Positions 428 through 64,000 of a stretch of DNA of 64,000 nucleotides are shown piece by piece. The notes under the pieces are model-generated. The model was given only the letters and a program-made list of their open reading frames with translations, was not told the origin of the DNA and searched no databases. Both the position numbers and the translations under genes were made by a program. Origin of the DNA: Candidatus Uhrbacteria bacterium (GTDB taxonomy: Bacteria > Patescibacteriota > Patescibacteriia > GWA2-47-26); NCBI GenBank assembly GCA_016187515.1, contig JACPJN010000009.1, positions 68,891 to 132,890 on the forward strand, read 5' to 3'. Every line of letters starts with the position of its first letter. The first letter of the stretch is position 1.

Positions 428-2026
428 TCATTTAGATGTTAGCTCTCGAGCAATGTTATCTATATCACCCGCACCCATAACTATGACCACATCGTTAGGC
501 TGGGCAAGCTGCAATAATAACTGCTTGGTTTCTTCGAGATTGCCTCCATATCGGACATCTGCGTAATCTGGGGCCGGAGGCATCTGCGTTATCTTGTCTA
601 CAAGCATACGCGAGTTGACATCCCGCTCTTCCATCCGTCCCTTCACAGCATAAATTTCTGACACGATAACTAAATCCGCCGCGTCTTTTAGCACTTCCAC
701 AAAATCGTTAAACAAATGCTTGGTACGACTGTGCTGGTGCGGCTGAAACACAAGTACGAGCCGCCGTCCGGGATAGGCCTCTCGCGCCGCCTTCATGGTT
801 TCGCGGATCGCGGTGGGATGGTGGGCATAATCGCTAATTACCAAAATTTCCCCGGAGGACTCATAACTCCCCCTCCCCCCTCTTACCTTAAGAGGGGGTA
901 TCGATCGATCTCCCTCCCTTAAGTTAAGGGAGGGTTGGGGTGAGTTATGAACTGCTGACATAGTGCCGACGATTTCAAAACGCCGCCACACACCGCGGAA
1001 ATCACGCACGGCACTTTCCGCTACCTCGCACGGCACGCCCAACTCCATCGCGGCCGTTGCCGCCGCCGTAGCATTGTATCGGTTAAATTCGCCTGGCACT
1101 TGGAGTTGAAGTGTCCCAAAAATTTCACTACTATGCCCATAGGTAATCCGCTTTTCCCCCACTTTGTCATTTCGAGCGAAGCGAGAAATCTCATATCGTG
1201 CAGACGGCAAGGTGTGAGATCCCTCGACTCCGTACTCTGCACTCCGCTCGGGATGACGGGAAATTAGTATGCTACATCCCGCATCATCTTCATTCATCAC
1301 CACCAATCCTTCCGCTGGCACTTTCTTCACTAACTTCTGAAAGCTCTCCACCGTCTGTTCCAAATCCCGAAAATAATCCGGATGATCCCATTCAATACTG
1401 GTTACGACTACCGCATACGGTGATAATTCTAAAAAATGATCACGATAGTCGTCGCCTTCAACGATGAAAAATCTCGCGGATGCACTACGTGCCGCAGATT
1501 GCACAGATGATATATCCGCGTAATTTGCGGGCGCAGCCATCTGCGGAATCCTTATATTGCTATTCCCCCACTCCCTCACTTTGCTCCCCACAATCACGAG
1601 CGGATCCATACCGGCCGCTTCAAGAATAAGTCCGAGCATCGCGGTCGTGGTGCTTTTTCCATGCGTGCCGGTTACCACAATCGTGCGGAACTCACAGCTC
1701 ACCTGCCCCAGTGCCTGGGCATACGACAGCTCCGGAATGCCTCTCGTCCGTGCGGCGGCCCGTTCCGGATGATCTTCCGGCACCGCATCGGAGTAGATCA
1801 CGAGATTAACACCATTCAATAACTGTGAACTGTGAACTGACGACTGTGAACTAAACACTTGAATACCGTCGGATTCAAGTGTTTTAGTTATCTCACTCTC
1901 CTCCGCATCCGACCCACTCACCTGCTTTCCTTGCGCGCGCCAAAGTTGCGCCAGCGCAGATACGCCAATCCCGCCAATGCCGATGCAATGAATTTTTTGT
2001 GCAGTAGAGATGTTCATGTTACTCAT
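428..2026 (-). CDS. murC: UDP-N-acetylmuramate--L-alanine ligase, carrying two in-frame repeat insertions
   Basis: N-terminal KIHCIGIGGIGVSALAQ Rossmann motif, GTHGKSTTTAM P-loop and Mur ligase middle/C-terminal blocks; 532 aa versus about 460 typical because of inserted elements. Confidence 0.9.
   Translation of the reverse strand: MSNMNISTAQKIHCIGIGGIGVSALAQLWRAQGKQVSGSDAEESEITKTLESDGIQVFSSQSSVHSSQLLNGVNLVIYSDAVPEDHPERAAARTRGIPELSYAQALGQVSCEFRTIVVTGTHGKSTTTAMLGLILEAAGMDPLVIVGSKVREWGNSNIRIPQMAAPANYADISSVQSAARSASARFFIVEGDDYRDHFLELSPYAVVVTSIEWDHPDYFRDLEQTVESFQKLVKKVPAEGLVVMNEDDAGCSILISRHPERSAEYGVEGSHTLPSARYEISRFARNDKVGEKRITYGHSSEIFGTLQLQVPGEFNRYNATAAATAAMELGVPCEVAESAVRDFRGVWRRFEIVGTMSAVHNSPQPSLNLREGDRSIPPLKVRGGRGSYESSGEILVISDYAHHPTAIRETMKAAREAYPGRRLVLVFQPHQHSRTKHLFNDFVEVLKDAADLVIVSEIYAVKGRMEERDVNSRMLVDKITQMPPAPDYADVRYGGNLEETKQLLLQLAQPNDVVIVMGAGDIDNIARELTSK
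861..950. mobile_element. GC-rich palindromic MITE-like element (TCATAAC family), in frame in murC
   Basis: TIR TCATAACTCCCC / GGGGTGAGTTATGA flank two hairpins, CCCCCTCTTACCTTAAGAGGGGG and CCCTCCCTTAAGTTAAGGGAGGG; translated in murC as [31 protein letters not shown]. Confidence 0.85.
1822..1855. repeat. 34-nt repeat ACTGTGAACTGTGAACTGACGACTGTGAACTAAA, in frame in murC
   Basis: Identical 34-mer recurs at about 54231-54264 inside uvrC; both encode FSSQSSVHSSQ on the minus strand. Confidence 0.85.
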
Positions 2027-3333: not shown

Positions 3334-4228
3334 CGGGCGTGCGCTTGCGGCAAAAATCCACGCCGAAATAAAAGAGGAAATCCAGCGCCTTAAGATTGTC
3401 CCCGGGCTGGGGGTTATTTTGGTTGGCGAAAATCCGGCTTCCGAGCATTATGTGGAACTAAAAAAGAAAAAAGCGGAAGCGCTGGGTTTTTATGTGGATG
3501 TACGCGCCCTCCCGTCCTCCATCACCCAGGAAGCGCTGCACGCTGAAATTATCAATCTTAATTCTCAATCTTCAATTCACGGCTTTATTTTACAACTCCC
3601 GCTCCCCTCCCGCCTTGATAAGCACGCCGCGCTAAATTTGATTGATCCCAAAAAAGACGCTGACGGTTTGCATCCGCTTAATCTTGGTAATTTGGCGCGT
3701 GGCGCACCGGCTGTAATACCGGCTACGCCCCGCGGAATCCTGGCGCTTATTGAATCCACCGGCACCCGTATTGAAGGCGCGCATGCGGTGGTAGTCGGCC
3801 GCAGTGCGATTGTGGGCCTGCCGACCGCACTGATGCTCACACAGCGCAACGCCACAGTAACCATCTGCCACTCGCACACCAAATCCTTGGCCGCGCATAC
3901 ACAAACCGCAGACATTCTGGTGGTCGCGGCCGGACACCCCGGACTGGTACGCGGCGATATGCTAAAAGGCGGCGCGTGCGTAATTGATGTGGGAAGTACT
4001 CCCACCCCCTCTGAATCTCCCCCTCCAAGAGGGGGAGAACACCGGTCAATTTCCCCCCCTGCCCGAGGGGGGGCGAGGGGGGGTGGGAGTACCAAATGGC
4101 TCGGAGACGTTGATTTCGCCTCCACCCTAAAAAAATCCGGCTTTATCACCCCAGTCCCGGGCGGAGTGGGCCCTATGACTGTCGCGATGCTTTTGAAAAA
4201 TACGATTGAGCTGGCAAAGTCATCCTGA
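3320..4228 (+). CDS. folD: bifunctional methylenetetrahydrofolate dehydrogenase/cyclohydrolase, with an in-frame element
   Basis: [13 protein letters not shown]..., GFILQLPLP and [11 protein letters not shown] motifs typical of FolD; 14-nt overlap with the glyA stop; extra [33 protein letters not shown] loop. Confidence 0.9.
3996..4092. mobile_element. GC-rich MITE-like element (GTACTCCCACC family), in frame in folD
   Basis: TIR GTACTCCCACCCC / GGGGTGGGAGTAC enclose hairpins TCCCCCTCCAAGAGGGGGAG and TCCCCCCCTGCCCGAGGGGGGG. Confidence 0.8.
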
Positions 4229-7923: not shown

Positions 7924-8012
7924 GGTAAATCAAGTGAATCAGGTAAATCAAGTAAATCAAGTAAATCAAGTGAATCAAGTGCCTGATTTACTTGTCTCGC
8001 TTGATTTACCCA
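7922..8012. repeat. tandem 9-bp repeat array (GTAAATCAA/GTGAATCAA about 7 copies) followed by inverted tail CTTGATTTACTTGTCTCGCTTGATTTAC
   Basis: Read directly in the dnaB-recR intergenic region; same architecture recurs at about 48903-49012. Confidence 0.85.
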
Positions 8013-8018
8013 ATCAAT

Positions 8019-8705
8019 ATGCAATTTCCTCCTCCCATCACCCGTCTGATCCAGCATTTCCGCGCGCTCCCCGGCGTGGGCCCGCGCACGGCCGCGCGTT
8101 TTGTATTCGCGCTATTAAACAAACCCGAAGATGAACTGCGTTCCTTTGGCCATGCCCTGGTTGATCTTAAAGAAAGCATCCGCGTGTGCAAAGCATGTTT
8201 CAACGTATCGCTGGCAAATCCCTGCCAAATTTGCGCGGATCCCAATCGCGATGCCGCCGCGCTTTGCGTGGTCGCCCGACCGCAAGATATCCAAGCCCTT
8301 GAAGAAACCCGGGAATATCATGGTCTCTATCACGTCTTGGGTGGGACGCTTAATCCGATTGAGGGCGTAACGCCGGAACAATTGCGGATTAAGGAATTGC
8401 TGAATAGAATTGATAATCCGCCGCTCCCACCCCTCCTAACCTCCCCTCGGGCAGGGGAGGAAAACGATCGTATTTCTCCCCCTTTTCAAGGGGGAGTTAG
8501 AGGGGGTCAAGACATCCAGGAAATCCTCCTCGCCTTAAACCCGGACCTGGAAGGCGAGGCCACCGCGCTTTACCTGGCCAAACTTCTTAAAGCCCGCGTG
8601 CCGCGCGTCACGCGGCTGGCCCGCGGACTGCCCCAAGGCGCGGACCTGGAATACGCCGACGAGGTAACGCTCATCAACGCGATAAAAGGACGAAGGGAAA
8701 TATGA
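8019..8705 (+). CDS. recR: recombination protein RecR, with an in-frame element
   Basis: MQFPPPITRLIQHFRALPGVGPRTAARFVFALL (HhH), C4 zinc finger CKACFNVSLANPCQIC and Toprim; track ORF starts at 7992 but the RecR alignment favours 8019. Confidence 0.88.
   Translation: MQFPPPITRLIQHFRALPGVGPRTAARFVFALLNKPEDELRSFGHALVDLKESIRVCKACFNVSLANPCQICADPNRDAAALCVVARPQDIQALEETREYHGLYHVLGGTLNPIEGVTPEQLRIKELLNRIDNPPLPPLLTSPRAGEENDRISPPFQGGVRGGQDIQEILLALNPDLEGEATALYLAKLLKARVPRVTRLARGLPQGADLEYADEVTLINAIKGRREI
8423..8508. mobile_element. GC-rich MITE-like element (CTCCCACCCC family), in frame in recR
   Basis: Hairpins CCTCCCCTCGGGCAGGGGAGG and CTCCCCCTTTTCAAGGGGGAG; encodes NPPLPPLLTSPRAGEENDRISPPFQGGVRGGQD. 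Confidence 0.8.
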
Positions 8706-36967: not shown

Positions 36968-37304
36968 AGACATCGCAAGCTAGGTCAGCATCCACTCGGG
37001 TGCAGTCCCTCAATGGAACCGCCGCGGTCAAGCACGCGCAGACATTCGCGCACCCACTCCGGCATCTCCCGCTGATCCTGCGCGCCAGAACCTCGCGCGT
37101 TTTTCGTCCGGTCCGCCTGCGCCGCGCAAGCGGGTCTGAAAACTTCCGAGACCTCTGCAAATCTTCTCACCATGTTTGTCCTCCTTTTCATTCATCCCCC
37201 TTCTGCTTTTTAGTATAAAAAAACGCCGCGCTGACAAATAGCGACAAGGTCTGAAAAGCAGGCCTCCAGGCCTGCACGACTGTTCTCCCTTTTTGCAACT
37301 AACA

Positions 37305-37370
37305 ACCCAATAACCCAAGTACCTAATCACCTAAATACCTAAGTACCTAATCACCTAATCACCTCACCCT
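37305..37370. repeat. tandem array of 8-9-bp units (TACCTAAGT / CACCTAATC)
   Basis: CAACCCAATAACCCAAGTACCTAATCACCTAAATACCTAAGTACCTAATCACCTAATCACC immediately 3' of the 626-aa gene. Confidence 0.75.
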
Positions 37371-41036: not shown

Positions 41037-41527
41037 TTTCCCCCCCTCTCGGATAGACCCCTCCTATCCTCCCCTTGGTAAGGGGAGGAAATCGGATCGC
41101 TTCTCCCCCTTTTCAAGGGGGAGGTAGAGGGGGTCCGTAGCTTTCTCCCCCTCTCCGAGGGGGAGTCAGAGGGGGTCAAATGTTGTCTGATCTTTTCTAC
41201 CACTCCGGCAATACTATCTCGCACTTCATTGTCCGTAACACGAATCACTCGAATCCCCCGCTGTTCAATAAACCGCTGTCGCGCGGCATCATGGTCGCCA
41301 GCGCCTGCTTGATAATGACTATCCCCATCAACTTCGATTGCTAATTTTGCGGGATCGCAGTAGAAATCAACCACGTACGGACCAATGCCGTATTGACGAC
41401 GAAATTTGTATCCATCGATATATTCCTTGCGGAGATAATACCATAGGATCTTTTCCGCATGCGTCATCCGATTGCGTAATTGCTGTCGTAATGGTGTTTG
41501 AAGTTCACGATTAAATAATGTTCCCAT
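41033..41527 (-). CDS. DUF559 (Vsr-like endonuclease domain) protein with its C-terminal about 45 aa encoded by a repeat element
   Basis: MTHAEKILWYYLRKEYIDGYKFRRQYGIGPYVVDFYCDPAKLAIEVDGDSH...RQRFIEQRGIRVIRV; tail PSDSPSERGRKLRTPSTSPLKRGRSDPISSPYQGED is the translated hairpin array. Confidence 0.75.
   Translation of the reverse strand: MGTLFNRELQTPLRQQLRNRMTHAEKILWYYLRKEYIDGYKFRRQYGIGPYVVDFYCDPAKLAIEVDGDSHYQAGAGDHDAARQRFIEQRGIRVIRVTDNEVRDSIAGVVEKIRQHLTPSDSPSERGRKLRTPSTSPLKRGRSDPISSPYQGEDRRGLSERGGK
41041..41178. mobile_element. GC-rich MITE-like element array (GACCCCTCCTA family, 3 hairpin modules)
   Basis: GACCCCTCCTATCCTCCCCTTGGTAAGGGGAGG ... CTCCCCCTTTTCAAGGGGGAGGTAGAGGGGGTC ... CTCCCCCTCTCCGAGGGGGAGTCAGAGGGGGTC. 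Confidence 0.8.
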
Positions 41528-41537
41528 ACGCTTACGT

Positions 41538-41661
41538 TAGACCCCTCCTAGCCTCCCCTTGGTAAGGGGAGGAAACGATTCAATTTCTCCCCCTCTCGGA
41601 GGGGGAGGTAGAGGGGGTCCGTAGCTTTCTCCCCCTCTCCGAGGGGGAGGTAGAGGGGGTC
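41538..41661. mobile_element. GC-rich MITE-like element (second copy, near-identical to 41041..41178)
   Basis: GACCCCTCCTAGCCTCCCCTTGGTAAGGGGAGG...GAGGGGGAGGTAGAGGGGGTC, present twice; intergenic between the DUF559 and clpC-like genes. Confidence 0.8.
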
Positions 41662-41665
41662 ATTT

Positions 41666-44353
41666 CTACAACTTCTCCGCTTTCTCTACCCGTAGCTGCC
41701 CGCCTTTTTCAAGGATCACGAGGTCGCGGCGGCCGAGCTTGGCGGTGAGCAGGAGATTCGCCAGGGCGTCGTTGACGCGCTCTTGGATTACGCGCCGCAG
41801 CGGACGGGCGCCGAAAAGCGGATCAAAGCCGGCATGCGCGAGCTCGGAGACGGCCTCATCAGTGGCGCGGAAGGTAATCCCTTTGGCCTCCAGTTGCTTG
41901 CCGACTTTAGCGAGCATCAGTTTCGCGATCTGCACAATCTCGGTCTCGGAAAGCGGTTTGTACACGATCACGGCATCAAAACGGTTTAAAAATTCCGGCC
42001 TAAAGTATTGCTTCAATTCGCGCTCAACAAGCGTTTTCTTGATCTCCTCCAGTGCCGTGCCTTTTTTAAGCTCTTCTTGAATAAACGGCGTCCCCGCGTT
42101 CGAGGTGCCGATAATAATGGTGTTGGTAAAGTCCACGACCCGTCCGGCGCTGTCGGTTACGCGTCCGTCATCCATCACCTGCAAAAACACGTTTAAAATA
42201 TCCGGATGCGCCTTTTCAATCTCGTCTAAGAGCACCAGCGAAAAGGGATTCTTGCGCACCGGCTCGGTAAGCAGTCCCCCATGCTCGCCCGGAGCGCCAA
42301 GCAGGCGATGCACACTGCCCTTATCTTGATACTCGGACATGTCCACGCGGGCCATGTGTGCTTCATTGCCAAAATACACTTCGGCCACGGTTTTCGCCGT
42401 CTCGGTCTTGCCCACCCCGGTGGGTCCCAGAAACAAGAAATTCGCAATCGGCCGCTTTTGTTCGCGAATCTCGGCGCGCGCGCGGCGCAGGGAGGCCGAG
42501 ACGGCTTTGACTGCCTCATCTTGACCAATGATCCGCGCATGCATTATTTTCTCCAGGTTCAAAAGCTTATCTGCCTCGGCCGCGGTAACCGAAGTAACCG
42601 GAACATGCGACTTTGCGGAAATTATTTCCGCAGCATCTTCTCCGCGCACCAATGCTTTCGCCCCCCGCCGATTGCGCACAAGCTCGGCGCTTTCTTTGGC
42701 CATATCAATCGCTTTTTCCGGGAGCGCTTGCTCTTTAAGAAACCGATCCGAAAGCACGACGGCTTTTTCCAGCGCGTTATACGAAAAATACACGCCGCTT
42801 TGGTGTTCAATCGGACCGACTTTGGATTCTAAAATATGTATCGCCGTATTTACCTCGGGCTCTTCCACCTCAATTTTAATACAGGCATTCCCGAGCGGGC
42901 TGCCTTCGATCCGGGCTTGATATTCTTCCGCAGTTGTGGTCGCGATCGCCAAAAAATACCCTTTTTCCAGCTCGGTGGCGAGCGTCTCTCCCAAATCCAG
43001 CCCGGCCCCCGCGCTGGCGCCGATTAATTCATGGACATTGGGCAGCGCCAAAACTACGTTACGCGAACGCGCAATATCATAAACACAAGTCAGCAAGCGC
43101 TCCTGGGCTTGCGCAGGGTTCGCTCCGGAAACTAATTTCGGTATGGATAATGAAACCAGACGGCGATCCTTAAGCGAGCGCGGAACTTCTTCCTCCACCA
43201 TCCGCTGCGCCAGACCATTAAGTATTGCTTCTTTACCAACCCCATGCGGGCCGACTAGAATAATACTTTTTCGCTCGCCCTCCAGAACCCGGAAAATCTC
43301 GTCAAACTCTTTCGCGCGATCAACCGTAAGCTCCAGATAGCCGCGCCCGGCAAGCCGAGTCAGGTCGTCGGAAAAGCGATCCAACGCCCGGGTCTGGAGC
43401 GCGGTCATCGCGCGATTCATCTCGCCTTTTGGACGGCGCGAGGCGGCGCCGCGAAAATGCTTCCAGCGCCGGCGCAATTCTTCGTTAATCTCCAGCCAGC
43501 GGACGGAATTGCGCAATTTTCGTTCGTCAATTCCCAGGTCGAAAAAAATTTCCTTAAGCCGCTCATCCGCCAGCGCTGTTTGGAGGAGTACCTGATGAGC
43601 GCCGACATATTCACTCTGGGCTTGCTGCGCGTCTTGGTAAGCAGTGATAATGATTTGCTTGGCAGTGTCGCCAAAGGTTGGATCACTCCCACCCCTCCCT
43701 CCCACCCCCTCTTGATCTCCCCCTCGGGCAGGGGGAGAGATTCCTCGGGCAGGGGAGGAAACCGCTTTTTCTCCCCCTCTTAAGTTAAGAGGGGGCAGGG
43801 GGGCGTTATGAACCGATTCCAACACATGCTTTAGGCGATCTTGCAATCCTTTCACATCAATCTCCAGTCGCACAAGAAGAGACGCCACTGACGGCGAACC
43901 CAAAAGCGCCCACATCAAATGCGCCGGCGCGACCTCCGCATGCTTTACGCGCGCAGCCGTGCGGTACGCCCCCCGAATCCGGGCGTACACATCTTCGGTC
44001 AGCGCGCGCGATACATCAATGCGCTTCAACCGTTTCTTTCTCCCCCTTACCAAGGGGGAGATTAAGAGGGGGTGCACCTTCTCTTTTTCCTCTCCTCTTC
44101 TTAATAATCTCATCACCAAATACAAATCCGCAATCAATGAAAACGCAAACACCAATTTTCCTCGTCCGCCAAATTGCCAATAGCGCACGGTAAAAATCCG
44201 CTCCACATCAGGCAGCGCTTCTCCCACCAGTGCTACAATTCCCACCACCGCAAAAGCGCTCACGATCGTGAGGAATATCGCGCGAACAAGTTTGCCCACG
44301 CGCTCCCCCGCCAAACCCGCCCGATCAATTTTTGCTCCGAAATAAAGTTCCAT
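41666..44353 (-). CDS. ClpA/ClpB/ClpC-family AAA+ chaperone ATPase with an unusual N-terminal TM segment and two in-frame element insertions
   Basis: Two Clp_N repeats, NBD1 Walker A GPHGVGKEAIL, NBD2 FLGPTGVGKTETAK, sensor LVLLDEIEKAHPDILNVFLQVMDDGRVTD; the start is uncertain (TM region of about 90 aa precedes Clp_N). Confidence 0.8.
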   Translation of the reverse strand: MELYFGAKIDRAGLAGERVGKLVRAIFLTIVSAFAVVGIVALVGEALPDVERIFTVRYWQFGGRGKLVFAFSLIADLYLVMRLLRRGEEKEKVHPLLISPLVRGRKKRLKRIDVSRALTEDVYARIRGAYRTAARVKHAEVAPAHLMWALLGSPSVASLLVRLEIDVKGLQDRLKHVLESVHNAPLPPLNLRGGEKAVSSPARGISPPARGGDQEGVGGRGGSDPTFGDTAKQIIITAYQDAQQAQSEYVGAHQVLLQTALADERLKEIFFDLGIDERKLRNSVRWLEINEELRRRWKHFRGAASRRPKGEMNRAMTALQTRALDRFSDDLTRLAGRGYLELTVDRAKEFDEIFRVLEGERKSIILVGPHGVGKEAILNGLAQRMVEEEVPRSLKDRRLVSLSIPKLVSGANPAQAQERLLTCVYDIARSRNVVLALPNVHELIGASAGAGLDLGETLATELEKGYFLAIATTTAEEYQARIEGSPLGNACIKIEVEEPEVNTAIHILESKVGPIEHQSGVYFSYNALEKAVVLSDRFLKEQALPEKAIDMAKESAELVRNRRGAKALVRGEDAAEIISAKSHVPVTSVTAAEADKLLNLEKIMHARIIGQDEAVKAVSASLRRARAEIREQKRPIANFLFLGPTGVGKTETAKTVAEVYFGNEAHMARVDMSEYQDKGSVHRLLGAPGEHGGLLTEPVRKNPFSLVLLDEIEKAHPDILNVFLQVMDDGRVTDSAGRVVDFTNTIIIGTSNAGTPFIQEELKKGTALEEIKKTLVERELKQYFRPEFLNRFDAVIVYKPLSETEIVQIAKLMLAKVGKQLEAKGITFRATDEAVSELAHAGFDPLFGARPLRRVIQERVNDALANLLLTAKLGRRDLVILEKGGQLRVEKAEKL
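43684..43812. mobile_element. chimeric GC-rich MITE-like element in frame between the two Clp_N repeats
   Basis: Starts CACTCCCACCCCTCC (CTCCCACCCC-type end) and ends GGGGGCGTTATGAA (TCATAAC-type end); 3-4 hairpins; encodes [40 protein letters not shown]. Confidence 0.75.
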
Positions 44354-46574: not shown

Positions 46575-47882
<1,308 letters not shown>

Positions 47883-48545: not shown

Positions 48546-48926
48546 CTATCGCGCCGCCACTACCCCGGTAGTTGACGACACATATTGCACATCGGTTGCG
48601 GCGATCATGCCGGACTCGCGCACCCAGGCCTCAATCCGTTGCGGCGTCTGCATTTCCGCGCTCTTTAGATTAAGCCGTTTATTTTCAAATTTCAAAGCCT
48701 CAATCCGGCGCTCCAGATCCTTCATTTTGTATCCATGAGTCGAGACGCTGACCATGGTCGTAAGATAAGAAAAGCCAACCGCGATAAGCGCGACCGCTAG
48801 CAAACCGCGCCAGGTTTTACGCGTGCTCATCAGGCGCATTATAAGACCAACTCGCCGCATGGTATGGTGGATTTTCGTAAGGTGGAAATGTCGGGGCATA
48901 ACAATTGAGTAAATCAAGTGAATCAA
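48546..48926 (-). CDS. ftsL: cell division protein FtsL-like (probable start about 48860)
   Basis: Single TM LLAVALIAVGFSYLTTMV followed by coiled coil DLERRIEALKFENKRLNLKSAEMQTP; sits between rsmH and the higBA pair. Confidence 0.65.
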   Translation of the reverse strand: MIHLIYSIVMPRHFHLTKIHHTMRRVGLIMRLMSTRKTWRGLLAVALIAVGFSYLTTMVSVSTHGYKMKDLERRIEALKFENKRLNLKSAEMQTPQRIEAWVRESGMIAATDVQYVSSTTGVVAAR

Positions 48927-49012
48927 GTAAATCAGGTAAATCAGGTAAATCAGGTAAATCAGGTGGCTTGACTTGCCTGCCTCGCTTGATTTACTTGTCT
49001 CGCTACAATTTC
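48903..49012. repeat. tandem 9-bp repeat array (GTAAATCAA/G about 7 copies) with inverted tail CTCGCTTGATTTACTTGTCTCGC
   Basis: Same architecture and unit as 7922..8012; lies between the rsmH stop and the ftsL start. Confidence 0.85.
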
Positions 49013-49998
49013 TCGATAACTCTCATCTTCGCGCTCCGGGCGCGCGGATTTATTCTAATCTCGCTATCACTCGGCACCACTGGTTTTTTGGTAAGTATTT
49101 TTAACTTCTGGTCCGGCCACTGCCGAAAAAACTGTTTGACGATCCGATCTTCCAGCGAATGAAACGCGATGACGGCCAGTCGTCCGCCGCGGTGCAGGAT
49201 TTCCACAGCTTGCGGCAGTACGGCTTGCAAAGCGCCCAGCTCATCATTTACCGCAATCCGCAATGCCTGGAAAGTGCGCGTGGCTGGATGCAATCCGCCG
49301 ATCCAGGGCATGCGATCCGCATTGCTCCCACCCCTCCTCGCCTCCCCTCGGGCAGGGGAGGAAAAATCTTTTCTCCCCCTCTCCGAGGGGGAGTTAGAGG
49401 GGGTGTGCTTACTAAGCTTCTCTCTATACGCTTGCACCACCACATCACTCAGTTGTTTGCTGGTCACCATTGGCTTCTTTTTCCGTTCTTCCACAATGCG
49501 GTTCGCGATCTCGCGCGCTAATCGCTCTTCCCCATATTCCGTGAGTAACTCCGCAAGCTGCTTCTGATTCCACGAGTTCACAATTTCTGCCGCGCGCACG
49601 CCGCGCGACACATCAAACCGCATGTCCAGCAGTTCATCCTTCTCAAACGAGAATCCCCTGCCTCGCTCAAGCGTCGAGGAAGAAAATCCTAGATCAAGAA
49701 GTATTCCCTGCACCGTCCCGAATTTTTGCTCCTTCACAATCGCGGCCAAGTTCCGGAAATTATCATTCACGAGCACAATGCGATTCAAGTATTTTCTAAT
49801 TTCGAATTGCGAATTTCTAATTTCAGTGATGGCGTCTGGATCGGCATCTATACCTAGTAATCTTCCAACGGGCGCGGTGTGCTGTAGGATTGCGGCACTA
49901 TGACTGCCATCACCGATCGTGCAATCCACAAAATTCTGATTCGGTTTAGGGTCAAGGAACTTCAGCGCTTCTTCTACCATGACTGGCACATGGGACAT
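49003..49998 (-). CDS. rsmH: 16S rRNA (cytosine1402-N4)-methyltransferase with in-frame insertions
   Basis: MSHVPVMVEEAL, FVDCTIGDGSHS, DLGFSS and AFHSLEDRIVK motifs; inserted HTPSNSPSERGRKDFSSPARGEARRGGSN and EIRNSQFEIRKY segments. Confidence 0.9.
   Translation of the reverse strand: MSHVPVMVEEALKFLDPKPNQNFVDCTIGDGSHSAAILQHTAPVGRLLGIDADPDAITEIRNSQFEIRKYLNRIVLVNDNFRNLAAIVKEQKFGTVQGILLDLGFSSSTLERGRGFSFEKDELLDMRFDVSRGVRAAEIVNSWNQKQLAELLTEYGEERLAREIANRIVEERKKKPMVTSKQLSDVVVQAYREKLSKHTPSNSPSERGRKDFSSPARGEARRGGSNADRMPWIGGLHPATRTFQALRIAVNDELGALQAVLPQAVEILHRGGRLAVIAFHSLEDRIVKQFFRQWPDQKLKILTKKPVVPSDSEIRINPRARSAKMRVIEKL
49325..49406. mobile_element. GC-rich MITE-like element (CTCCCACCCC family) in frame in rsmH
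   Basis: GCTCCCACCCCTCCTCGCCTCCCCTCGGGCAGGGGAGG...CTCCCCCTCTCCGAGGGGGAGTTAGAGGGGGTG. Confidence 0.8.
49786..49835. repeat. AT-rich insertion (TATTTTCTAATTTCGAATTGCGAATTTCTAATTTCAGTG) in frame in rsmH
   Basis: Shares the ATTTCTAATTTCGAAT core with the tgt insertion; low GC island inside a GC-rich CDS. Confidence 0.65.
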
Positions 49999-52923: not shown

Positions 52924-54411
52924 TTAGTGGAATTTCTTACGCCGCCGCGGCCTGAACCCGCGGCCCCTTAACCTCCGATGATAGCATACCGCAAACCGGT
53001 GCGCTTCGTCACGCACGCGCAAAAGAAAATCCTTATAATTTTCCACAATGCGGACAAGCTCGGGATTATCCTTATCAAAAATTGGCCGGTCTTGCTTGCG
53101 CTTAAAACCTTTGGCAATGCCGACGATGAGAATGTGGAGCCCACCTGCCTGCACCACGTCCCGCGCCGCATTCACCTGCCCCCAACCGCCGTCAATCACG
53201 ATCAAATCTGGCATGGGCCATTCAACCCCCTCTTTCTCCCCCTTCCCAAGGGGGAGATTAAGTGGGGGTCCGGAGCGCTTGAACCGTCGCGCCAGCACTT
53301 CGCGCATCATCGCCACATCATTAATCCCCTGCACAGTTTTAATTTTAAATCTTTTGTATTCGCGTTTGGACGGTTCGCCATTTTGGAATACCACCATTGA
53401 TCCCACTGCGCTAGTGCCGCTGATATTGGAAATATCATATCCTTCGATACGACCGAGGATACTGATCGGCGTAGGGCATAGAGCGTAGGGCGTAGAGCTT
53501 TGCCTCTTTGCTCTATGCTCTATGCCATCTGCCGCCAACACGGCCACATCCCGAATATGCTTCAGCGCAAATAATTTCCTCTTCAGCGATTCGGCCTCCT
53601 CAAACTTTTCTTCACGCGCGGCATTCTTCATTCTTAATTCTAAATTCTTCATTACTTTCGCCTTTTTGCCTTCCAGCATCAAAATCACATTCCGAATATT
53701 TTTCATATACTCTTTGCGCGTGACCGCGCCCACACACACCCCCGGACAGCGGCCGATATGATAATCAAAGCACGGTTTTCGTGGTGATTCGTTTTTTTTA
53801 TTCGTGGTAATTCGTGTCATGCACCGCCACGGAAACCACTTCCGCATCAAATCCAGCGCCGCGCGAATGGAGGAGGCGCTCGTATATGGACCGAACACTT
53901 TGATCGCTCGTAACCCCCTCGCACTCCCCCTTACCCTAAGGGGGAAAAACGAACGATCTCCCTCCCTTAAGGTAAGGGAGGGCTGGGGTGGGTTATGAAT
54001 GGTGGCATATTGTGCCAGCTCATTCCCCCGCACCAGCTGCACCTTAGGAAAACGCTCATTAGTAATAACCACGTAAAGGAATGACTTATCATCTTTTTCC
54101 CTTACATTATAGCGCGGCTGATATTTTTTAATTAAATTCGCCTCCAGTATCAACGCCTCAATTACGCTGTCCGTCACCTGATAATCAATCCGCGCCACCT
54201 CATGCAACATCTCATCAATCGTCCTCCGATACTGTGAACTGTGAACTGACGACTGTGAACTAAAGTACGAGTTTACTCGTATTTTAAGATTCGTCGCTTT
54301 CCCCACATACACCACCTTCCCCTTTTTATCGCGCATCAAATACACCCCTGGTTTGGTGGGAAGTTTGTTGTGTTTGATTTTGATTATCTTTTGGATTGAC
54401 ATAATCCTCAC
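52924..54411 (-). CDS. uvrC: excinuclease ABC subunit C (short form lacking the C-terminal HhH domain), with in-frame repeat insertions
   Basis: GIY-YIG KPGVYLMRDKKGKVVYVGKATNLKIRVNSY, UvrBC-interaction region, RNase H-like endonuclease domain; probable ATG at 54402 (MSIQK). Confidence 0.85.
   Translation of the reverse strand: MRIMSIQKIIKIKHNKLPTKPGVYLMRDKKGKVVYVGKATNLKIRVNSYFSSQSSVHSSQYRRTIDEMLHEVARIDYQVTDSVIEALILEANLIKKYQPRYNVREKDDKSFLYVVITNERFPKVQLVRGNELAQYATIHNPPQPSLTLREGDRSFFPLRVRGSARGLRAIKVFGPYTSASSIRAALDLMRKWFPWRCMTRITTNKKNESPRKPCFDYHIGRCPGVCVGAVTRKEYMKNIRNVILMLEGKKAKVMKNLELRMKNAAREEKFEEAESLKRKLFALKHIRDVAVLAADGIEHRAKRQSSTPYALCPTPISILGRIEGYDISNISGTSAVGSMVVFQNGEPSKREYKRFKIKTVQGINDVAMMREVLARRFKRSGPPLNLPLGKGEKEGVEWPMPDLIVIDGGWGQVNAARDVVQAGGLHILIVGIAKGFKRKQDRPIFDKDNPELVRIVENYKDFLLRVRDEAHRFAVCYHRRLRGRGFRPRRRKKFH
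53907..53999. mobile_element. GC-rich MITE-like element (TCGTAAC/TCATAAC family) in frame in uvrC
   Basis: GCTCGTAACCCCCTCGCACTCCCCCTTACCCTAAGGGGGA...TCCCTCCCTTAAGGTAAGGGAGGGCTGGGGTGGGTTATGAA; a solo hairpin module also lies at about 53225-53270. Confidence 0.8.
54231..54264. repeat. second copy of the 34-nt GTGAACTG repeat, in frame in uvrC
   Basis: ACTGTGAACTGTGAACTGACGACTGTGAACTAAA identical to 1822..1855; encodes FSSQSSVHSSQ. Confidence 0.85.
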
Positions 54412-54449
54412 GATCTCCCTCCCTTAAGGTAAGGGAGGGTTGGGGTGGG

Positions 54450-54827: not shown

Positions 54828-54834
54828 CTCCCCC

Positions 54835-58737: not shown

Positions 58738-60933
58738 ATTGTTTGCCGGCTTCTTGCTTTGCTTCCTTAATACTTGTATCTCGTCTCTCAAGATTGCCGC
58801 CAATTCAAACTGCAGCAAATTTGCCGCCTCGCGCATTTGTTTTTCCTTTTCGCGAATCAAGTCATCCGCGCGTCCGCCCTTCGCTTGTGTTTCAAGCTCC
58901 AGCGCTTTTTTCGCCAATTCTTCCTCTTTTCGTTTGGTCAGGCCTTCCGTAATGTCTTTGATGGCTTTTTTAATTGTGCGCGGGGTAATGCCGTGCGCTT
59001 TATTGTAAGCCATTTGCAATTTGCGCCGCCGATCGGTTTCCCGAATTGCCCGCGTGATTGAGCCGGTCATCTGGTCTGCATAAAGCACGACTTGCCCATG
59101 CACATTGCGCGCCGCGCGACCAATGGTCTGGATTAGCGAGGTTTCACTGCGCAAAAATCCTTCTTTATCCGCGTCTAAAATTGCCACGAGCGACACCTCG
59201 GGCAAATCCAGTCCTTCGCGGAGCAAGTTTACACCCACCAATACATCAAATTTACCGCGCCGAAAATCGGTGAGAATCGTAATGCGATCCAGCGTGTCCA
59301 CATCAGAATGCAAATATTGCACTTTTATTTTTAAATCGGCAAGATATTCAGTTAAATCCTCGGCCATTTTCTTGGTCAGGGTGGTTACCATCACCCGCTC
59401 ATGCCTTTTCACACGCTCCTTTACGCGCGCCATCAAATCCTCCACCTGGGATTTAGAAGCCATGGTTACGCCATGACTACGCAATGTCACGCCAGTTGGC
59501 GTCTTGTGGCGTAGTGATGGCGTTTTTGTGGCCTCTACCGCCCCAGTTATAGGGCGTACAATAATTTCTGGATCAACCAGTCCGGTCGGCCGAATAATTT
59601 GCTCCACCACGCCATTTGCTCTTTGCTCTTTGCTCTTGGCCAATTCATATGTTCCTGGCGTGGCCGAAGTATAAATCGTCTGCGGCATACGCGCCTCAAA
59701 TTCCTCAAATTTAAGCGGCCGATTATCAATCGCGCTCGGCAGGCGGAACCCATATTCGATAAGCGCCTGTTTGCGGCTGCGATCACCTTCGTACATCCCC
59801 TGGATCTGGGGAAGCGTTACGTGGGATTCGTCAATAACTAGGAGCCAATCATTAGCACGCTGTCCCCCTCCCCTAACCCCTCCCACCAAGGGAGGGGGAT
59901 TTGTTGTTCCTCCCTCTCCCCTTGTGGGAGAGGGTTGGGGTGAGGGGTAACGCGTGAAATAATCCAACAACGTCTTTGCCGGCTCTCCGGGCGCGCGGCC
60001 ATCAAAATGCCGCGAGTAATTTTCAATGCCATGACAAAATCCAACTTGTGCAATCATTTCCAAATCATAACGCGTGCGCCGTTCCAGCCGCTCGGCTTCC
60101 AGCAGTTTTCCGGTTTTATTAAAATACGCTAACCGATCTTTAAGCTCGGCGCGGATGTCTTTGATGGCGCGCTTGACTTGCGGTTCATCCGCCACATAAT
60201 GTTTGGTTGGAAAAATCCACACCGAGTCCACTTTTTCACGCACTTTTCGGGTTACCGGATCAATCATAATAATCTCCCCGACTTCCTGCGCGCTTAAATC
60301 CACGCGATAAATCATATCGTGATTGGAAGGCATGACTTCAAAAGTTTGTCCCCTCATCCTAAACATTCCACGTTTTACTTCAGCATTCGTACGCGCATAT
60401 TGCATTTTGGTCAGCGTTTTCAAAATATCTACGCGCCCAATAACTTGCCCACGCGTCAATTTCATGGACATTTTCTCATACGTCTCCGGCGATCCAATGT
60501 TGTAAATGCACGAAACCGAGGCCACAATAATTACATCGCGCCGGGTAAGTAGCGCTTGTGTTGCCGCGTGCCGCAACCGATCAATTTCTTCATTAATCAT
60601 GGCTTCTTTTTCAATATAAGTATCCGTGCGCGGCAAATACGCCTCCGGCTGATAGTAATCGTAGTAGGACACAAAATACTCCACCGCGCTGTCCGGAAAA
60701 AACTCCCGATATTCATTGCAAAGCTGGGCCGCCAGCGTCTTGTTATGCGCAATGACTAAAGTCGGCCGCTGGACTTTTTCAATCACATTAGCAATACTGA
60801 AAGTTTTTCCACTGCCCGTAACACCAAGCAAGGTTTGATGCGCGTCGCCACGCTCAAGTCCATCCACGAGTTGCTTAATCGCCCGCGGCTGGTCACCTGC
60901 CGGCTTGAATTTACTTCTGATCCTAAATTTCAT
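58726..60933 (-). CDS. uvrB: excinuclease ABC subunit B with an in-frame element
   Basis: GDQPRAIKQLVDGL, LLGVTGSGKTF, helicase motifs, UvrB/UvrC interaction C-terminus; inserted PSPQPSPTRGEGGTTNPPPLVGGVRGGGQR. Confidence 0.92.
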   Translation of the reverse strand: MKFRIRSKFKPAGDQPRAIKQLVDGLERGDAHQTLLGVTGSGKTFSIANVIEKVQRPTLVIAHNKTLAAQLCNEYREFFPDSAVEYFVSYYDYYQPEAYLPRTDTYIEKEAMINEEIDRLRHAATQALLTRRDVIIVASVSCIYNIGSPETYEKMSMKLTRGQVIGRVDILKTLTKMQYARTNAEVKRGMFRMRGQTFEVMPSNHDMIYRVDLSAQEVGEIIMIDPVTRKVREKVDSVWIFPTKHYVADEPQVKRAIKDIRAELKDRLAYFNKTGKLLEAERLERRTRYDLEMIAQVGFCHGIENYSRHFDGRAPGEPAKTLLDYFTRYPSPQPSPTRGEGGTTNPPPLVGGVRGGGQRANDWLLVIDESHVTLPQIQGMYEGDRSRKQALIEYGFRLPSAIDNRPLKFEEFEARMPQTIYTSATPGTYELAKSKEQRANGVVEQIIRPTGLVDPEIIVRPITGAVEATKTPSLRHKTPTGVTLRSHGVTMASKSQVEDLMARVKERVKRHERVMVTTLTKKMAEDLTEYLADLKIKVQYLHSDVDTLDRITILTDFRRGKFDVLVGVNLLREGLDLPEVSLVAILDADKEGFLRSETSLIQTIGRAARNVHGQVVLYADQMTGSITRAIRETDRRRKLQMAYNKAHGITPRTIKKAIKDITEGLTKRKEEELAKKALELETQAKGGRADDLIREKEKQMREAANLLQFELAAILRDEIQVLRKQSKKPANNSPS
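59864..59952. mobile_element. GC-rich MITE-like element in frame in uvrB
   Basis: CCCCCTCCCCTAACCCCTCCCACCAAGGGAGGGGG...CCTCCCTCTCCCCTTGTGGGAGAGGGTTGGGGTGAGGGGTAACG. Confidence 0.75.
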
Positions 60934-62658: not shown

Positions 62659-63993
62659 TCACCTCCTTTGCAAATTTGATATCCGCACTCCGATTAAACG
62701 GATCAACCGCGTTTTCTTCAAATATGGAATGAGAAGCTTAAGCGCCTCCCGTTTAAGTATTGTACCATCGGCGCTAAAATGCCGCAAGGTGTACGCGGCA
62801 GTATGGGTCTCAAAATTCTCAAACCGCACCCGCATGGTAATCGTACGAAATTGCACGCTTTCCTTTCGCGCCTCATCCATCACCTCATCACACAACTCCA
62901 TAAGTGTGCGCGTCAAAAGGGCTTGGTCCCGTGTGTCAGCCGCAAACGTAGTTTCATGGCCCACGGATTTTGCCTCATATTCCTCAACCACCGGAGAATC
63001 ATCCCGGCCATGCGCGCGGTCAAACAACTCATCACTGCGCGGCAGAGACACCCTCAAGTCCCGAATGGTTTTAATCCCCTGCCGCGCGAGCTGCGCCTCG
63101 GTTTTAGGCCCAATTCCGGGCAATCGGCGCACCGGCAATGGATCTAAAAATTCCTGCACGCGCTCGGGCGTGACCACTGTCAACCCGTCCGGCTTTTTAA
63201 AATCCGAAGCAATTTTGGCAATCAATTTATTTGGTCCGATTCCAATCGAGCAAGTCAATCGTTCGCGCTTCAAAATCTCCATCTTAATCTTTCTCGCAAT
63301 CCTCTCCGCCTCCTCCAACGCATTTCCATAATTCATGATTCGTAATTCATGCTTCATCAACTCAACATACGCTTCGTCCACGGACACCTGTTCCATTGGC
63401 ACACCCCCTCTAACTCCCCCTCGAAGAGGGGGAGAAACGAAACGATTTCCCCCCCTGCCCGAGGGGGGGTGCGGGGGGGTGGGAGCGACCGCGCACTCAA
63501 CCACTTCCTTTACCACCTTCATAATCCGCTCCGACACAATCCCATACAACTTCCCATCCACCGGCAAATACGCGCACTGCGGCGCCGAGCATAATTTCCA
63601 AGCGCGAGAAATCGGCATGGCGCTATGAATTCCAAATTTCCGCGCGGCATAATTTGCCGTCGACACCACGCCGCGGCCTTGGCCTTCCTTCGGATCAGCG
63701 CCTACCACAATGGGGCACCCCTTAAGTTCCGGATGCTCCCTTTCCTCCACTGCCGCAAAAAACGCGTCCATGTCAATATGTAATATTATACGCGCCATAT
63801 ACAACAAAACCCCTTCAAACTGATTCAAAAAATCAAAAGGGCAAAGATACAAAGAGTTTAGGTTTTTGACTTGCCTGCCCCGCACCAAGCTACGCTTTGG
63901 TGCTGGGGCGGAGGCGGAAGACAAACCGGTTGACAGGATACCACCTGCTCTCTGGCTTCGCCCAGTTGCGGCGCAGCCACAACCCGTCCTCAT
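62659..63993 (-). CDS. dinB: DNA polymerase IV (Y-family) with an in-frame element (probable start 63798)
   Basis: MARIILHIDMDAFFAAVEEREHPELKGCPIVVG, SIDEAYVEL-like and GIGPKTEAQL motifs; inserted [30 protein letters not shown]. Confidence 0.9.
   Translation of the reverse strand: MRTGCGCAATGRSQRAGGILSTGLSSASAPAPKRSLVRGRQVKNLNSLYLCPFDFLNQFEGVLLYMARIILHIDMDAFFAAVEEREHPELKGCPIVVGADPKEGQGRGVVSTANYAARKFGIHSAMPISRAWKLCSAPQCAYLPVDGKLYGIVSERIMKVVKEVVECAVAPTPPHPPSGRGGNRFVSPPLRGGVRGGVPMEQVSVDEAYVELMKHELRIMNYGNALEEAERIARKIKMEILKRERLTCSIGIGPNKLIAKIASDFKKPDGLTVVTPERVQEFLDPLPVRRLPGIGPKTEAQLARQGIKTIRDLRVSLPRSDELFDRAHGRDDSPVVEEYEAKSVGHETTFAADTRDQALLTRTLMELCDEVMDEARKESVQFRTITMRVRFENFETHTAAYTLRHFSADGTILKREALKLLIPYLKKTRLIRLIGVRISNLQRR
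63403..63487. mobile_element. GC-rich MITE-like element (CTCCCACCCC family, reverse orientation) in frame in dinB
   Basis: ACACCCCCTCTAACTCCCCCTCGAAGAGGGGGAG...TTCCCCCCCTGCCCGAGGGGGGGTGCGGGGGGGTGGGAGCG. Confidence 0.8.
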
Positions 63994-64000
63994 TGCGCGC

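What the first reader, a model, noticed from the sequence alone, without database searches (positions are those of the whole stretch)
1822..1855. Identical 34-nt GTGAACTG-rich insertion shared in frame by murC and uvrC
ACTGTGAACTGTGAACTGACGACTGTGAACTAAA occurs at 1822-1855 (murC) and 54231-54264 (uvrC), same orientation and same frame, adding FSSQSSVHSSQ to two unrelated enzymes. 33 nt of the shared block (11 codons) are read through. Perfect identity implies very recent insertion or conversion; this is a second, distinct class of in-frame micro-insertion.
Basis: seen in the sequence. Interest (0 to 1): 0.6.

Follow-up and report, generated by a model that had tools for sequence, protein, structure and literature searches.

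The report
Duplicated heptamer repeat inside two genes
Two essential enzymes (MurC and UvrC) of an uncultured Uhrbacteria (CPR) bacterium carry the same 34-base run of 7-base tandem repeats, translated in a tolerant surface loop; it belongs to a known, widespread repeat type, but being copied exactly between two genes and overwriting loop sequence is unusual.

Summary
ACTGTGAACTGTGAACTGACGACTGTGAACTAAA occurs exactly at 1822-1855 and 54231-54264. Both copies lie inside minus-strand genes (murC, uvrC) and are read as FSSQSSVHSSQ. Independent assemblies break inside the murC copy.

It is not a simple 11-codon insertion. It is an imperfect heptanucleotide tandem repeat, about 4.9 units of ACTGTGA. 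Its AACTG-core vocabulary occurs in at least 109 unrelated metagenome sites and resembles the published TAACTGA repeats. Only the reverse orientation lacks stop codons, so the shared orientation is forced and the shared frame is a 1-in-2 outcome.

In both proteins the array overlies a hypervariable, low-confidence loop. The net change is about +3 residues in MurC, and UvrC is shorter than its closest relatives there. A related murC has a different array (TCAAATG x5) at the same place with no length change. The closest uvrC has a 30-nt palindrome there.

Period-7 arrays are strongly enriched across Patescibacteria, and arrays within one genome tend to share units. The peptide is very low copy.

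Best reading: a neutral heptamer array copied once or a few times between loci by a templated event. The copying step is inferred. This is a new variant of a known kind, of moderate interest.

The parts
1822..1855 (+). Copy 1 of the 34-nt imperfect heptamer array (ACTGTGA ACTGTGA ACTGACG ACTGTGA ACTAAA). It is read on the minus strand as MurC residues F58-Q68 (FSSQSSVHSSQ).
   Evidence: Exact match. TRF period 7, 4.6 copies. Lies in the low-confidence segment between strands E56-59 and E75-78 of the MurC model. Logan contigs start at 1823 and 1826.
54231..54264 (+). Copy 2 of the same 34-nt array. It is read on the minus strand as UvrC residues F50-Q60 (FSSQSSVHSSQ).
   Evidence: Exact match. 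TRF period 7, 4.4 copies. UvrC model residues 54-58 have pLDDT below 50, between helices 42-51 and 59-71.
428..2026 (-). Host gene murC (UDP-N-acetylmuramate--L-alanine ligase, 532 aa).
   Evidence: Pfam Mur_ligase, Mur_ligase_M and Mur_ligase_C. 100% identical to P0001 from a Candidatus Uhrbacteria MAG.
52924..54411 (-). Host gene uvrC (excinuclease subunit C, 495 aa).
   Evidence: Pfam GIY-YIG and UvrC_RNaseH_dom. 100% identical to P0121 on the same 202 kb contig.
1849..1889 (.). Strong hairpin next to copy 1: a 17-pair stem with one bulge whose outer pairs include the last array unit (AACTAAA / TTTAGTT). It encodes conserved MurC residues ITKTLESDGIQVF. Its link to the array is unexplained.
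   Evidence: DNA fold -12.4 kcal/mol, z = -5.6, 0 of 200 shuffles fold as well. The residues align with homologues.
54261..54286 (.). Weak hairpin next to copy 2 (11-pair A/T-rich stem) encoding conserved UvrC residues KIRVNSYF. It is not statistically supported.
   Evidence: DNA fold -5.5 kcal/mol, z = -1.2, 26 of 200 shuffles fold as well.
46796..46868 (.). Same class, different units: an inverted pair of heptamer arrays (ATTGGAT and AATATCT types) inside tgt.
47508..47542 (.). Same class: heptamer array (ATTTTGC type) inside tgt.
49789..49826 (.). Same class: heptamer array (TTTCTAA type) inside rsmH.
53468..53534 (.). Same class: an inverted pair of heptamer arrays (GGCGTAG / CTCTATG) inside uvrC, in a low-confidence linker of variable length.
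53618..53654 (.). Same class: heptamer array encoding KNLELRMKN in the UVR helix of UvrC. It causes no length change and is shared with the relative L204.
59609..59644 (.). Same class: heptamer array (TTTGCTC) inside uvrB.
63325..63350 (.). Same class: heptamer array (CATAATT type) inside dinB.

Best explanation
The 34-mer is a short, imperfect tandem repeat of a 7-nt unit. It is a heptanucleotide simple-sequence array of the widespread AACTG-core type (ACTGTGA, ACTGACA, ACTGAGA and others, related to the published TAACTGA repeats). Both copies lie in reverse orientation inside minus-strand genes, which is the only orientation free of stop codons. Each is translated as FSSQSSVHSSQ in a poorly conserved, low-confidence surface loop about 55 residues from the N-terminus of MurC or UvrC. 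The copies overlie (replace) the loop sequence found in relatives and do not add 11 clean residues. All of that is shown. Inferred: the two copies are identical because one array, or a third copy elsewhere, was copied into the other locus by a non-reciprocal, template-directed event. Candidates are ectopic conversion or template switching during replication or repair, possibly favoured by the adjacent hairpin at murC. The array then persists as a neutral passenger because these loops tolerate almost any sequence. It is one product of a lineage-wide process that creates, homogenises and disperses heptamer arrays in Patescibacteria genomes.
For: Repeat nature: TRF period 7, 4.4-4.6 copies. Period-7 arrays number 7 in the window and 2 in L001 against 0 in shuffles. 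In 1.28 Mb of 80 Patescibacteria loci there are 169 against 18 in shuffles, more than for periods 6, 9 or 12. Those contigs have 26-70% GC and share nothing else with the window. The most common array length is 5 units, as here. MacGregor 2015 (PMC4679880) describes the same logic: forward copies have stops in all frames, so ORF copies are reverse. Orientation and frame constraint. Permissive loops and overwriting: alignments. The MurC segment is 39 aa in nearly all of 45 genes, 39 in L001 despite five TCAAATG units, 42 here and 50 in L185. L204 uvrC has a perfect 30-nt palindrome at the site. pLDDT dips at both arrays. Copying rather than independent growth: the third unit (ACTGACG) is imperfect and both boundaries are identical. 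None of 109 unrelated sites sharing the first 20 nt matches all 34 nt; the best are 29 nt cut by a contig end and 33 of 34. Other genomes also hold identical imperfect arrays in two places (L145 28 nt, L160 24 nt). Arrays within one genome share identical units 7 times more often than GC-matched between-genome pairs (p = 2e-7). Low copy number: only 5 proteins in 5.8 billion clusters share words with the peptide. There is no other AACTG array in the window or in 82 related loci.
Against: No donor, no presence/absence polymorphism and no close strain were available, so the direction, age and mechanism of the copying are untested. There is no flanking homology or clear microhomology beyond the native TTT codon. 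The rest of the genome (about 140 kb more of the contig plus other contigs) could not be scanned, and intergenic copies or copies read in the other frame would escape the peptide search. The hairpin association is significant at only one of the two sites. The pairs in the unit-sharing test are not fully independent. Neutrality is assumed from loop variability and was not measured.
Confidence: 0.6

Rival explanations
1. The 34-mer is an active, non-autonomous mobile micro-element, a very small dispersed repeat moved by a trans-acting enzyme that pastes or overwrites about 31-34 nt at preferred targets such as hairpin-adjacent sites.
For: The identity has abrupt boundaries and no flanking homology. 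Two copies occur within 64 kb. Other Patescibacteria genomes have identical imperfect arrays in two genes. Units are shared within genomes. A strong hairpin abuts copy 1. Loops are overwritten without length change in L001.
Against: Only 5 word-sharing proteins exist in 5.8 billion clusters, and two of them should be MurC and UvrC. There are no terminal inverted repeats or target-site duplication in the sequence. No other AACTG array occurs in the window or related loci. No candidate enzyme was identified. The site 2 hairpin is not significant.
Confidence: 0.15
2. The array, alone or with the downstream hairpin, is a functional nucleic-acid element on the + strand. It could be a multi-site binding platform for an RNA- or DNA-binding protein, or the 3' part of an antisense or leader RNA, as proposed for TAACTGA repeats upstream of start codons.
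For: The AACTG-core class is shared by very different organisms, has a preferred size of 5 units, and often ends within 0-7 nt of a start codon (PMC4679880). Copy 1 lies in forward orientation 225 nt upstream of the divergent glyA, followed by a strong hairpin and TTTTA. Both copies lie about 170 nt into their host genes.
Against: Copy 2 has no + strand gene downstream. The hairpins are not called as terminators on the + strand, and the site 2 hairpin is not significant. There is no Rfam match. Relatives carry unrelated arrays or a palindrome at the same sites. The hairpin arms encode conserved residues. No expression data exist.
Confidence: 0.12
3. The two arrays grew independently in place by replication slippage of the same favoured heptamer and are identical by convergence.
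For: The vocabulary is limited, and near-identical strings occur in unrelated contigs: L021 matches 33 of 34, and L034, L065 and L078 are similar. Heptanucleotide repeats are the commonest long SSR class in bacteria (Mrazek 2007, as cited in PMC4679880).
Against: Both copies have the same imperfect third unit, the same degenerate last unit and the same boundaries. The net length changes (+3 residues; fewer than relatives) are not multiples of 7 nt. Single 7-nt steps would frameshift essential genes. None of 109 sites with the same first 20 nt matches all 34.
Confidence: 0.06
4. It is an assembly or binning artefact that created one of the copies.
For: The source is a metagenome-assembled genome, and the uvrC copy could not be confirmed independently.
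Against: Two other assemblies reproduce the murC junction with no mismatches and break inside the repeat, which implies a second context in the reads. Both proteins are full-length and collinear with orthologues across the repeat.
Confidence: 0.02

Closest known systems
TAACTGA heptamer direct repeats of marine Beggiatoaceae, Cyanobacteria and some Bacteroidetes (MacGregor 2015, PMC4679880)
   Same: Tandem 7-nt direct repeats with the AACTG core in sets of 2-6 units. Forward copies carry stop codons in all frames, so ORF-internal copies are reverse and give 7-residue periodic Ser/Val/Gln-rich peptides. The phylogenetic distribution is patchy and the spreading mechanism is unknown. The metagenome relatives of our array often sit just upstream of start codons.
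   Different: The unit is TGAACTG rather than ATAACTG (5 of 7 positions shared). The host is a CPR bacterium. The copies are in interior loops of essential enzymes, not in 5' leaders, protein termini or hypothetical ORFs. An imperfect array is duplicated exactly at two loci and overlies native sequence.
Heptanucleotide long simple sequence repeats of prokaryotes (Mrazek et al. 2007, as summarised in PMC4679880) and cyanobacterial STRR heptamers (from memory)
   Same: Period 7 is the favoured repeat length, and the arrays are short and dispersed. Period 7 is also the most enriched period in Patescibacteria loci.
   Different: That literature explains arrays by local polymerase slippage and notes that non-triplet units avoid coding regions. 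Here 48 of 80 strict arrays lie in long open frames. An exact imperfect copy occurs at a second locus, and one array (L001) replaced sequence with no length change.
Small dispersed repeats (SDR, 21-27 nt) of Nostoc (Elhai et al. 2008; from memory, paper not held)
   Same: Very short, protein-less sequences found as identical copies at unrelated loci, some within genes and associated with secondary-structure contexts.
   Different: SDRs are high-copy, are not tandem heptamers, and are confined to Nostocaceae. Our element is low copy.
In-frame palindromic elements and MITEs such as Rickettsia palindromic elements (established knowledge), and the GC-rich palindromic repeats of this same genome
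   Same: Repeat DNA that is read through in frame and lands in surface loops of conserved enzymes without destroying them. The same MurC and UvrC loops host such elements in relatives (L124, P0123).
   Different: Those elements are 70-150 nt, palindromic and high copy. The 34-mer has no inverted termini, is a direct tandem repeat, and is present twice.

Membership tests
Heptanucleotide tandem repeat (long simple sequence repeat) | Head-to-tail copies of one 7-nt unit, three or more copies, beyond chance | tested here: met
   TRF period 7, 4.4-4.6 copies, 75-76% matches. Period-7 arrays: 7 against 0 in shuffles in the window.
Heptanucleotide tandem repeat (long simple sequence repeat) | Unit-number polymorphism through slippage among strains | not testable with these tools
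   No near-identical MurC or UvrC variants exist in the database; clusters P0001 and P0121 have one member each.
TAACTGA-type (AACTG-core) direct repeats | Unit is TAACTGA | tested here: not met
   In the NNAACTG register the unit is TGAACTG against ATAACTG. The AACTG core is identical and 2 of 7 positions differ.
TAACTGA-type (AACTG-core) direct repeats | Sets of 2-6 tandem units | tested here: met
   4.9 units here. The mode is 5 units among 109 metagenome sites.
TAACTGA-type (AACTG-core) direct repeats | Mostly intergenic, forward, within a few nt upstream of a start codon | tested here: not met
   Both window copies are ORF-internal and reverse. About 18 of 109 metagenome relatives do have a start codon within 7 nt.
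TAACTGA-type (AACTG-core) direct repeats | Forward strand has stops in all frames, so ORF-internal copies are reverse | tested here: met
   Six-frame translation.
In-frame MITE or palindromic element (RPE-like) | Terminal inverted repeats or overall palindromic structure | tested here: not met
   The 34-mer is a direct tandem repeat. Its fold shows no internal pairing, and only the neighbouring native sequence pairs.
In-frame MITE or palindromic element (RPE-like) | Target-site duplication flanking the element | tested here: not met
   The flanks differ and carry no direct repeat.
In-frame MITE or palindromic element (RPE-like) | Many dispersed copies per genome | tested here: inconclusive
   Two copies in 64 kb. 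At most 5 proteins in the database share words with the peptide. The rest of the genome could not be read.
In-frame MITE or palindromic element (RPE-like) | Read through in frame in a surface loop of a conserved protein | tested here: met
   Alignments and pLDDT dips.
Small dispersed repeats (SDR, Nostoc) | 21-27 nt unit present in tens to hundreds of near-identical copies | tested here: not met
   The block is 34 nt with two copies seen and is low copy by the peptide search. The family definition is recalled from memory.
Known structured RNA family | Match to an Rfam covariance model | tested here: not met
   No match at E <= 1 over either copy.

The most novel reading that the evidence does not exclude
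Patescibacteria may have a templated patch-copying process that writes short heptamer arrays of about 30-35 nt, with genome-specific units, over loop-coding DNA of essential genes, sometimes with no length change. If so, the murC/uvrC 34-mer would be a fresh product of the smallest known mobile or convertible sequence unit, and this process would drive loop diversification in CPR proteins.
Probability: 0.15. Interest if true: 0.65.

Novelty: new variant of a known kind. Interest (0 to 1): 0.4.

Why it matters
Heptanucleotide repeats are known but poorly understood, and are usually treated as non-coding slippage products. Four things here go beyond that view. (1) They are abundant inside essential housekeeping genes of CPR bacteria. 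(2) An imperfect array has been copied exactly between two unrelated genes. (3) The same protein loop carries different arrays, or a palindrome, in different lineages. (4) One array replaced native sequence without changing its length. Together these suggest a conversion-like process, not only slippage. That bears on how the many unexplained in-frame extras of CPR proteins arise, and on why k-mer assemblies of these genomes fragment. The wide spread of the AACTG-core vocabulary (26-70% GC organisms, preferred size five units) also extends the TAACTGA observation well beyond the taxa where it was described. It keeps open the question of a conserved binding partner.

Tried and rejected
- **Genome and viral scans.** A scan of genome contigs for the 24-mer core gave 0 hits, so the source genome is not a species representative there. 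A scan of viral contigs for the 20-mer also gave 0 hits.
- **Extending the source contig.** Looking up P0001 failed: no such gene is on record. Logan contigs found through SHMT and the sigma factor are short and break at repeats. The uvrC copy and the rest of the genome therefore stayed out of reach.
- **Peptide search for further copies.** A profile with random flanks worked locally. On the real database it returned only 5 word-sharing candidates, none listed.
- **Special DNA-level conservation of the array at 53622-53649.** The 28-nt identity with L204 is not exceptional, because an ordinary conserved stretch gives 29 nt. Rejected.
- **Shared hairpin as part of the element.** Only site 1 is significant. 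The hairpins are not called as + strand terminators. Their arms encode conserved residues. Kept as an unexplained neighbour, not as part of the repeat.
- **Classifying metagenome sites as coding or intergenic.** Using open frames of at least 100 aa is unreliable in high-GC contigs, so the result was not used.
- **CRISPR spacer or Cas1-Cas2 off-target integration.** Considered because of the roughly 33-nt size and the neighbouring palindrome. Rejected: there is no duplicated flanking repeat, and it would not explain the 7-nt periodicity.
- **Programmed frameshift signal.** Rejected: the hairpin lies upstream of the array in the mRNA sense.
- **Literature.** The Elhai 2008 paper could not be read.
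Full report
**1. Observation**

The string ACTGTGAACTGTGAACTGACGACTGTGAACTAAA occurs exactly at 1822-1855 and 54231-54264 on the + strand. Even with three mismatches allowed there are no other matches, and 100 shuffles gave none. Identity ends abruptly on both sides.

Both copies lie inside long minus-strand ORFs:
- 428-2026 is MurC, with all three Mur-ligase domains.
- 52924-54411 is UvrC, with the GIY-YIG and RNase H-like domains.

Both ORFs are 100% identical to proteins of a Candidatus Uhrbacteria (CPR/Patescibacteria) MAG, on one 202 kb contig. Each copy is read in the same frame as FSSQSSVHSSQ.

Two independent Logan assemblies match the window without a mismatch over 6.1 and 5.5 kb. They begin at window positions 1823 and 1826, inside copy 1. 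A k=31 assembler does this at a true repeat longer than 31 nt, so the repeat is real in the reads. Both proteins are collinear with orthologues across the repeat.

**2. What the block is**

It is not an arbitrary insert. It is an imperfect tandem repeat with period 7: ACTGTGA, ACTGTGA, ACTGACG, ACTGTGA, ACTAAA. TRF reports 4.4-4.6 copies.

The window holds about ten more period-7 arrays of 28-38 nt with other units. All lie inside housekeeping genes: tgt (three arrays), rsmH, uvrC (three more), uvrB and dinB. Period-7 arrays number 7 in the window against 0 in shuffles.

In 1.28 Mb around murC from 80 Patescibacteria genomes there are 169 period-7 arrays against 18 in shuffles. That is more than for the codon-compatible periods 6, 9 and 12. 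Of the 80 strict arrays from the window, L001 and those 80 loci, 48 lie in long open frames.

**3. The unit belongs to a widespread vocabulary**

In these contigs the 20-mer is always part of heptamer arrays that share the core AACTG and vary in the other two positions: ACTGTGA, ACTGACA, ACTGAGA, ACTGCGA and others.
- The contigs have 26-70% GC and share nothing else with the window.
- The most common array size is five units, as here.
- About 18 of 109 unique sites have a start codon within 7 nt downstream.

This matches the TAACTGA direct repeats described in Beggiatoaceae, Cyanobacteria and Bacteroidetes (PMC4679880). Those repeats come in sets of 2-6 units and lie mostly just upstream of start codons. 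Their forward copies carry stops in all frames, so the few ORF-internal copies are reverse and encode 7-residue periodic peptides.

Our 34-mer behaves the same way. The forward strand has stops in all three frames, and the reverse strand has two open frames. The shared orientation is therefore forced, and the shared frame is a one-in-two outcome.

No other AACTG-type array occurs in the window or in the 82 related loci. None was found in viral contigs. No Rfam family overlaps either copy.

**4. Insertion or replacement?**

*MurC.* The array-encoded residues lie over the position where homologues have FIGHxxxNI. The segment from the G.D motif to the hhhYS strand is 39 residues in nearly all of 45 Patescibacteria MurC proteins. 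It is 42 here, a net of +3, not +11. The Phe codon (TTT) at the end of the block is native in both genes.

The nearest murC relative (L001, 57% identical) carries a different array at the same position: TCAAATG x4 followed by TCAGATG, read as QMSNVKCQMS. Its segment is still exactly 39 residues, so that array overwrote native sequence with no length change. A third genome (L185) has yet another array there (+11). In L124 the GC-rich palindromic element replaces the region. Three arrays in 45 loops is 4- to 13-fold over background (Poisson P = 0.04 to 0.002, depending on how narrowly the loop is defined).

*UvrC.* The stretch between SYF and RTI has 12 residues here, 19-20 in the closest relatives and 5-8 in distant ones. 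The closest relative (L204) has at that spot a perfect 30-nt palindrome, CATTCTGCGATTCGCGCGAATCGCAGAATG, read as HSAIRANRRM.

*Structure models.* AlphaFold models built with the homologue alignments place both arrays in local confidence dips between well-predicted elements:
- MurC residues 61-70 have pLDDT 64 against 87-93 on either side.
- UvrC residues 54-58 are below 50, between helices 42-51 and 59-71.

The other low-confidence stretches coincide with the other in-frame repeats. These loops are permissive sites that collect several kinds of repeat DNA.

**5. Why are the two copies identical?**

Independent growth by slippage is unlikely. Both copies share the imperfect third unit, the degenerate last unit and both boundaries. 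Single 7-nt steps would frameshift essential genes. None of 109 unrelated sites with the same first 20 nt matches all 34 nt. The best are 29 nt cut by a contig end, and 33 of 34.

The pattern is not unique to this genome:
- L145 has the same imperfect 28-nt array in murC and in another gene, both read as KLEIRNWK, the only open frame.
- L160 has a shared 24-mer.
- Arrays within one genome share an identical consensus unit in 4.3% of pairs, against 0.6% for GC-matched pairs from different genomes (odds ratio 7, p = 2e-7; pairs are not fully independent).

So arrays are copied or homogenised within genomes.

The element is nevertheless low copy. A profile made of the invariant peptide with random flanks detects MurC and UvrC locally at E = 1.2 and 0.087 for the full database size. 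On the real database it found only five word-sharing candidates among 5.8 billion clusters.

I therefore favour a single or rare non-reciprocal templated copy (ectopic conversion or template switch) over an active high-copy mobile element. This step is inferred. No donor, polymorphism or enzyme was identified.

**6. The hairpins**

Each copy is followed on the + strand by a different inverted repeat and then TTTTA. The one at murC (1849-1889) is a 17-pair stem whose outer pairs include the last array unit. It folds at -12.4 kcal/mol, z = -5.6, and 0 of 200 shuffles fold as well. The one at uvrC is A/T-rich and not significant (z = -1.2, 26 of 200).

Both hairpins encode conserved native residues: ITKTLESDGIQVF in MurC and KIRVNSYF in UvrC. 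The terminator scan does not call either as a + strand terminator. I treat the murC hairpin as an unexplained neighbour that could have favoured a template switch, and not as part of the repeat.

**7. Age and selection**

The heptamer array that encodes KNLELRMKN in UvrC (53622-53649) is identical over 28 nt in L204, whose uvrC is 72% identical overall. An ordinary conserved stretch gives a 29-nt run, so there is no evidence for selection on the DNA itself. The result does show that in-ORF heptamer arrays can be old, cause no length change, and become part of a conserved helix.

**8. Comparison with what is known, and verdict**

The block is a heptanucleotide tandem repeat (membership met). 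It works like the reverse, ORF-internal TAACTGA repeats, but it differs from them in four ways:
- the unit is different (5 of 7 positions shared);
- the host phylum is different;
- the copies are in interior loops of essential enzymes;
- an exact imperfect copy is present at two loci.

It fails the defining tests for MITE/RPE-like elements, having no inverted termini and no target duplication. It also fails those for high-copy small dispersed repeats.

I file it as a new variant of a known kind, of moderate interest (0.4). The more novel reading is a patch-copying process that writes genome-specific heptamer arrays over loop-coding DNA in CPR bacteria. That reading is not excluded, and I give it about 15%.

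Noticed in passing
window 7925-8020 and 48909-49017: Two intergenic arrays of a 9-nt unit (GTAAATCAA/G, about 6 copies), each followed by inverted copies of the unit so that the whole can fold back. Logan contig L205 ends inside the first (position 7962), so this too is a true dispersed repeat.
   Followed up: partly
window 37296-37364: An intergenic array with an 8-nt period (ACCTAATC type, about 5.5 copies; also scored at periods 16 and 24), lying between two minus-strand ORFs.
   Followed up: no
window 54450-54827, with 54415-54466 and 54801-54852: A 125-aa DUF559 (Vsr-like endonuclease fold) ORF sits between uvrC and uvrA and is bracketed by 52-nt inverted GC-rich repeats (83% complementary). 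It looks like a small selfish cassette.
   Followed up: partly
window 866-951, 4004-4090, 8423-8509, 41051-41662, 43686-43810, 47178-47263, 49324-49406, 53210-53270, 53913-53999, 54415-54456, 55941-56045, 56452-56541, 56825-56943, 57254-57341, 58655-58743, 63397-63487: A large family of GC-rich palindromic repeats (CCCTCCCTTAAGGTAAGGGAGGG type). They are read through in frame as NPPQPSL.LREGDRS.PPL.VRGG-like peptides in MurC, UvrC, UvrA, FolD and others. They coincide with low-pLDDT stretches of the models.
   Followed up: partly
window 53774-53829 (and L204 uvrC): A 56-nt stretch encoding WRCMTRITTNKKNESPRK is 100% identical to the uvrC of the relative L204, although the genes are only 72% identical (third positions 53%). 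Other UvrC proteins lack this segment. It contains repeated CACGAAT motifs and looks like a recently shared or converted in-frame element.
   Followed up: partly
L204 10157-10186: A perfect 30-nt palindrome, CATTCTGCGATTCGC|GCGAATCGCAGAATG, is read in frame as HSAIRANRRM in uvrC, at the exact loop where the window has the heptamer array. The same peptide occurs in UvrC P0126 and P0127.
   Followed up: partly
window 1849-1889: A 17-pair hairpin (z = -5.6) lies inside murC and both of its arms encode conserved residues (TKTLE / IQVF). Its origin is unexplained; conversion of a quasi-palindrome into a perfect one is one possibility.
   Followed up: partly
L145 977-1004 and 7932-7959; L160 1173-1196 and 2724-2747; L174 4207-4246, 4369-4411 and 8980-9012; L185 1309-1341, 1771-1815 and 5444-5485: Other Patescibacteria genomes hold the same imperfect heptamer array, or the same unit, in two or three different genes, including inverted pairs within one ORF. 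Each genome has its own unit.
   Followed up: partly
L063 and L082 (two copies each, 3114 nt apart); also L017, L052, L086, L108, L116, L118: In low-GC metagenome contigs the ACTGTGA array is preceded by a conserved sequence of about 40 nt (..caatcgttgcatagttcattgaaaaa). It recurs at 3.1 kb spacing and may be the end of a larger repeated element.
   Followed up: no
window 62662-63999 and L204 1256-2413: Both this genome and its relative encode a DinB/Pol IV-family translesion polymerase near the uvr genes. The window's dinB itself carries a heptamer array (63325-63350).
   Followed up: no
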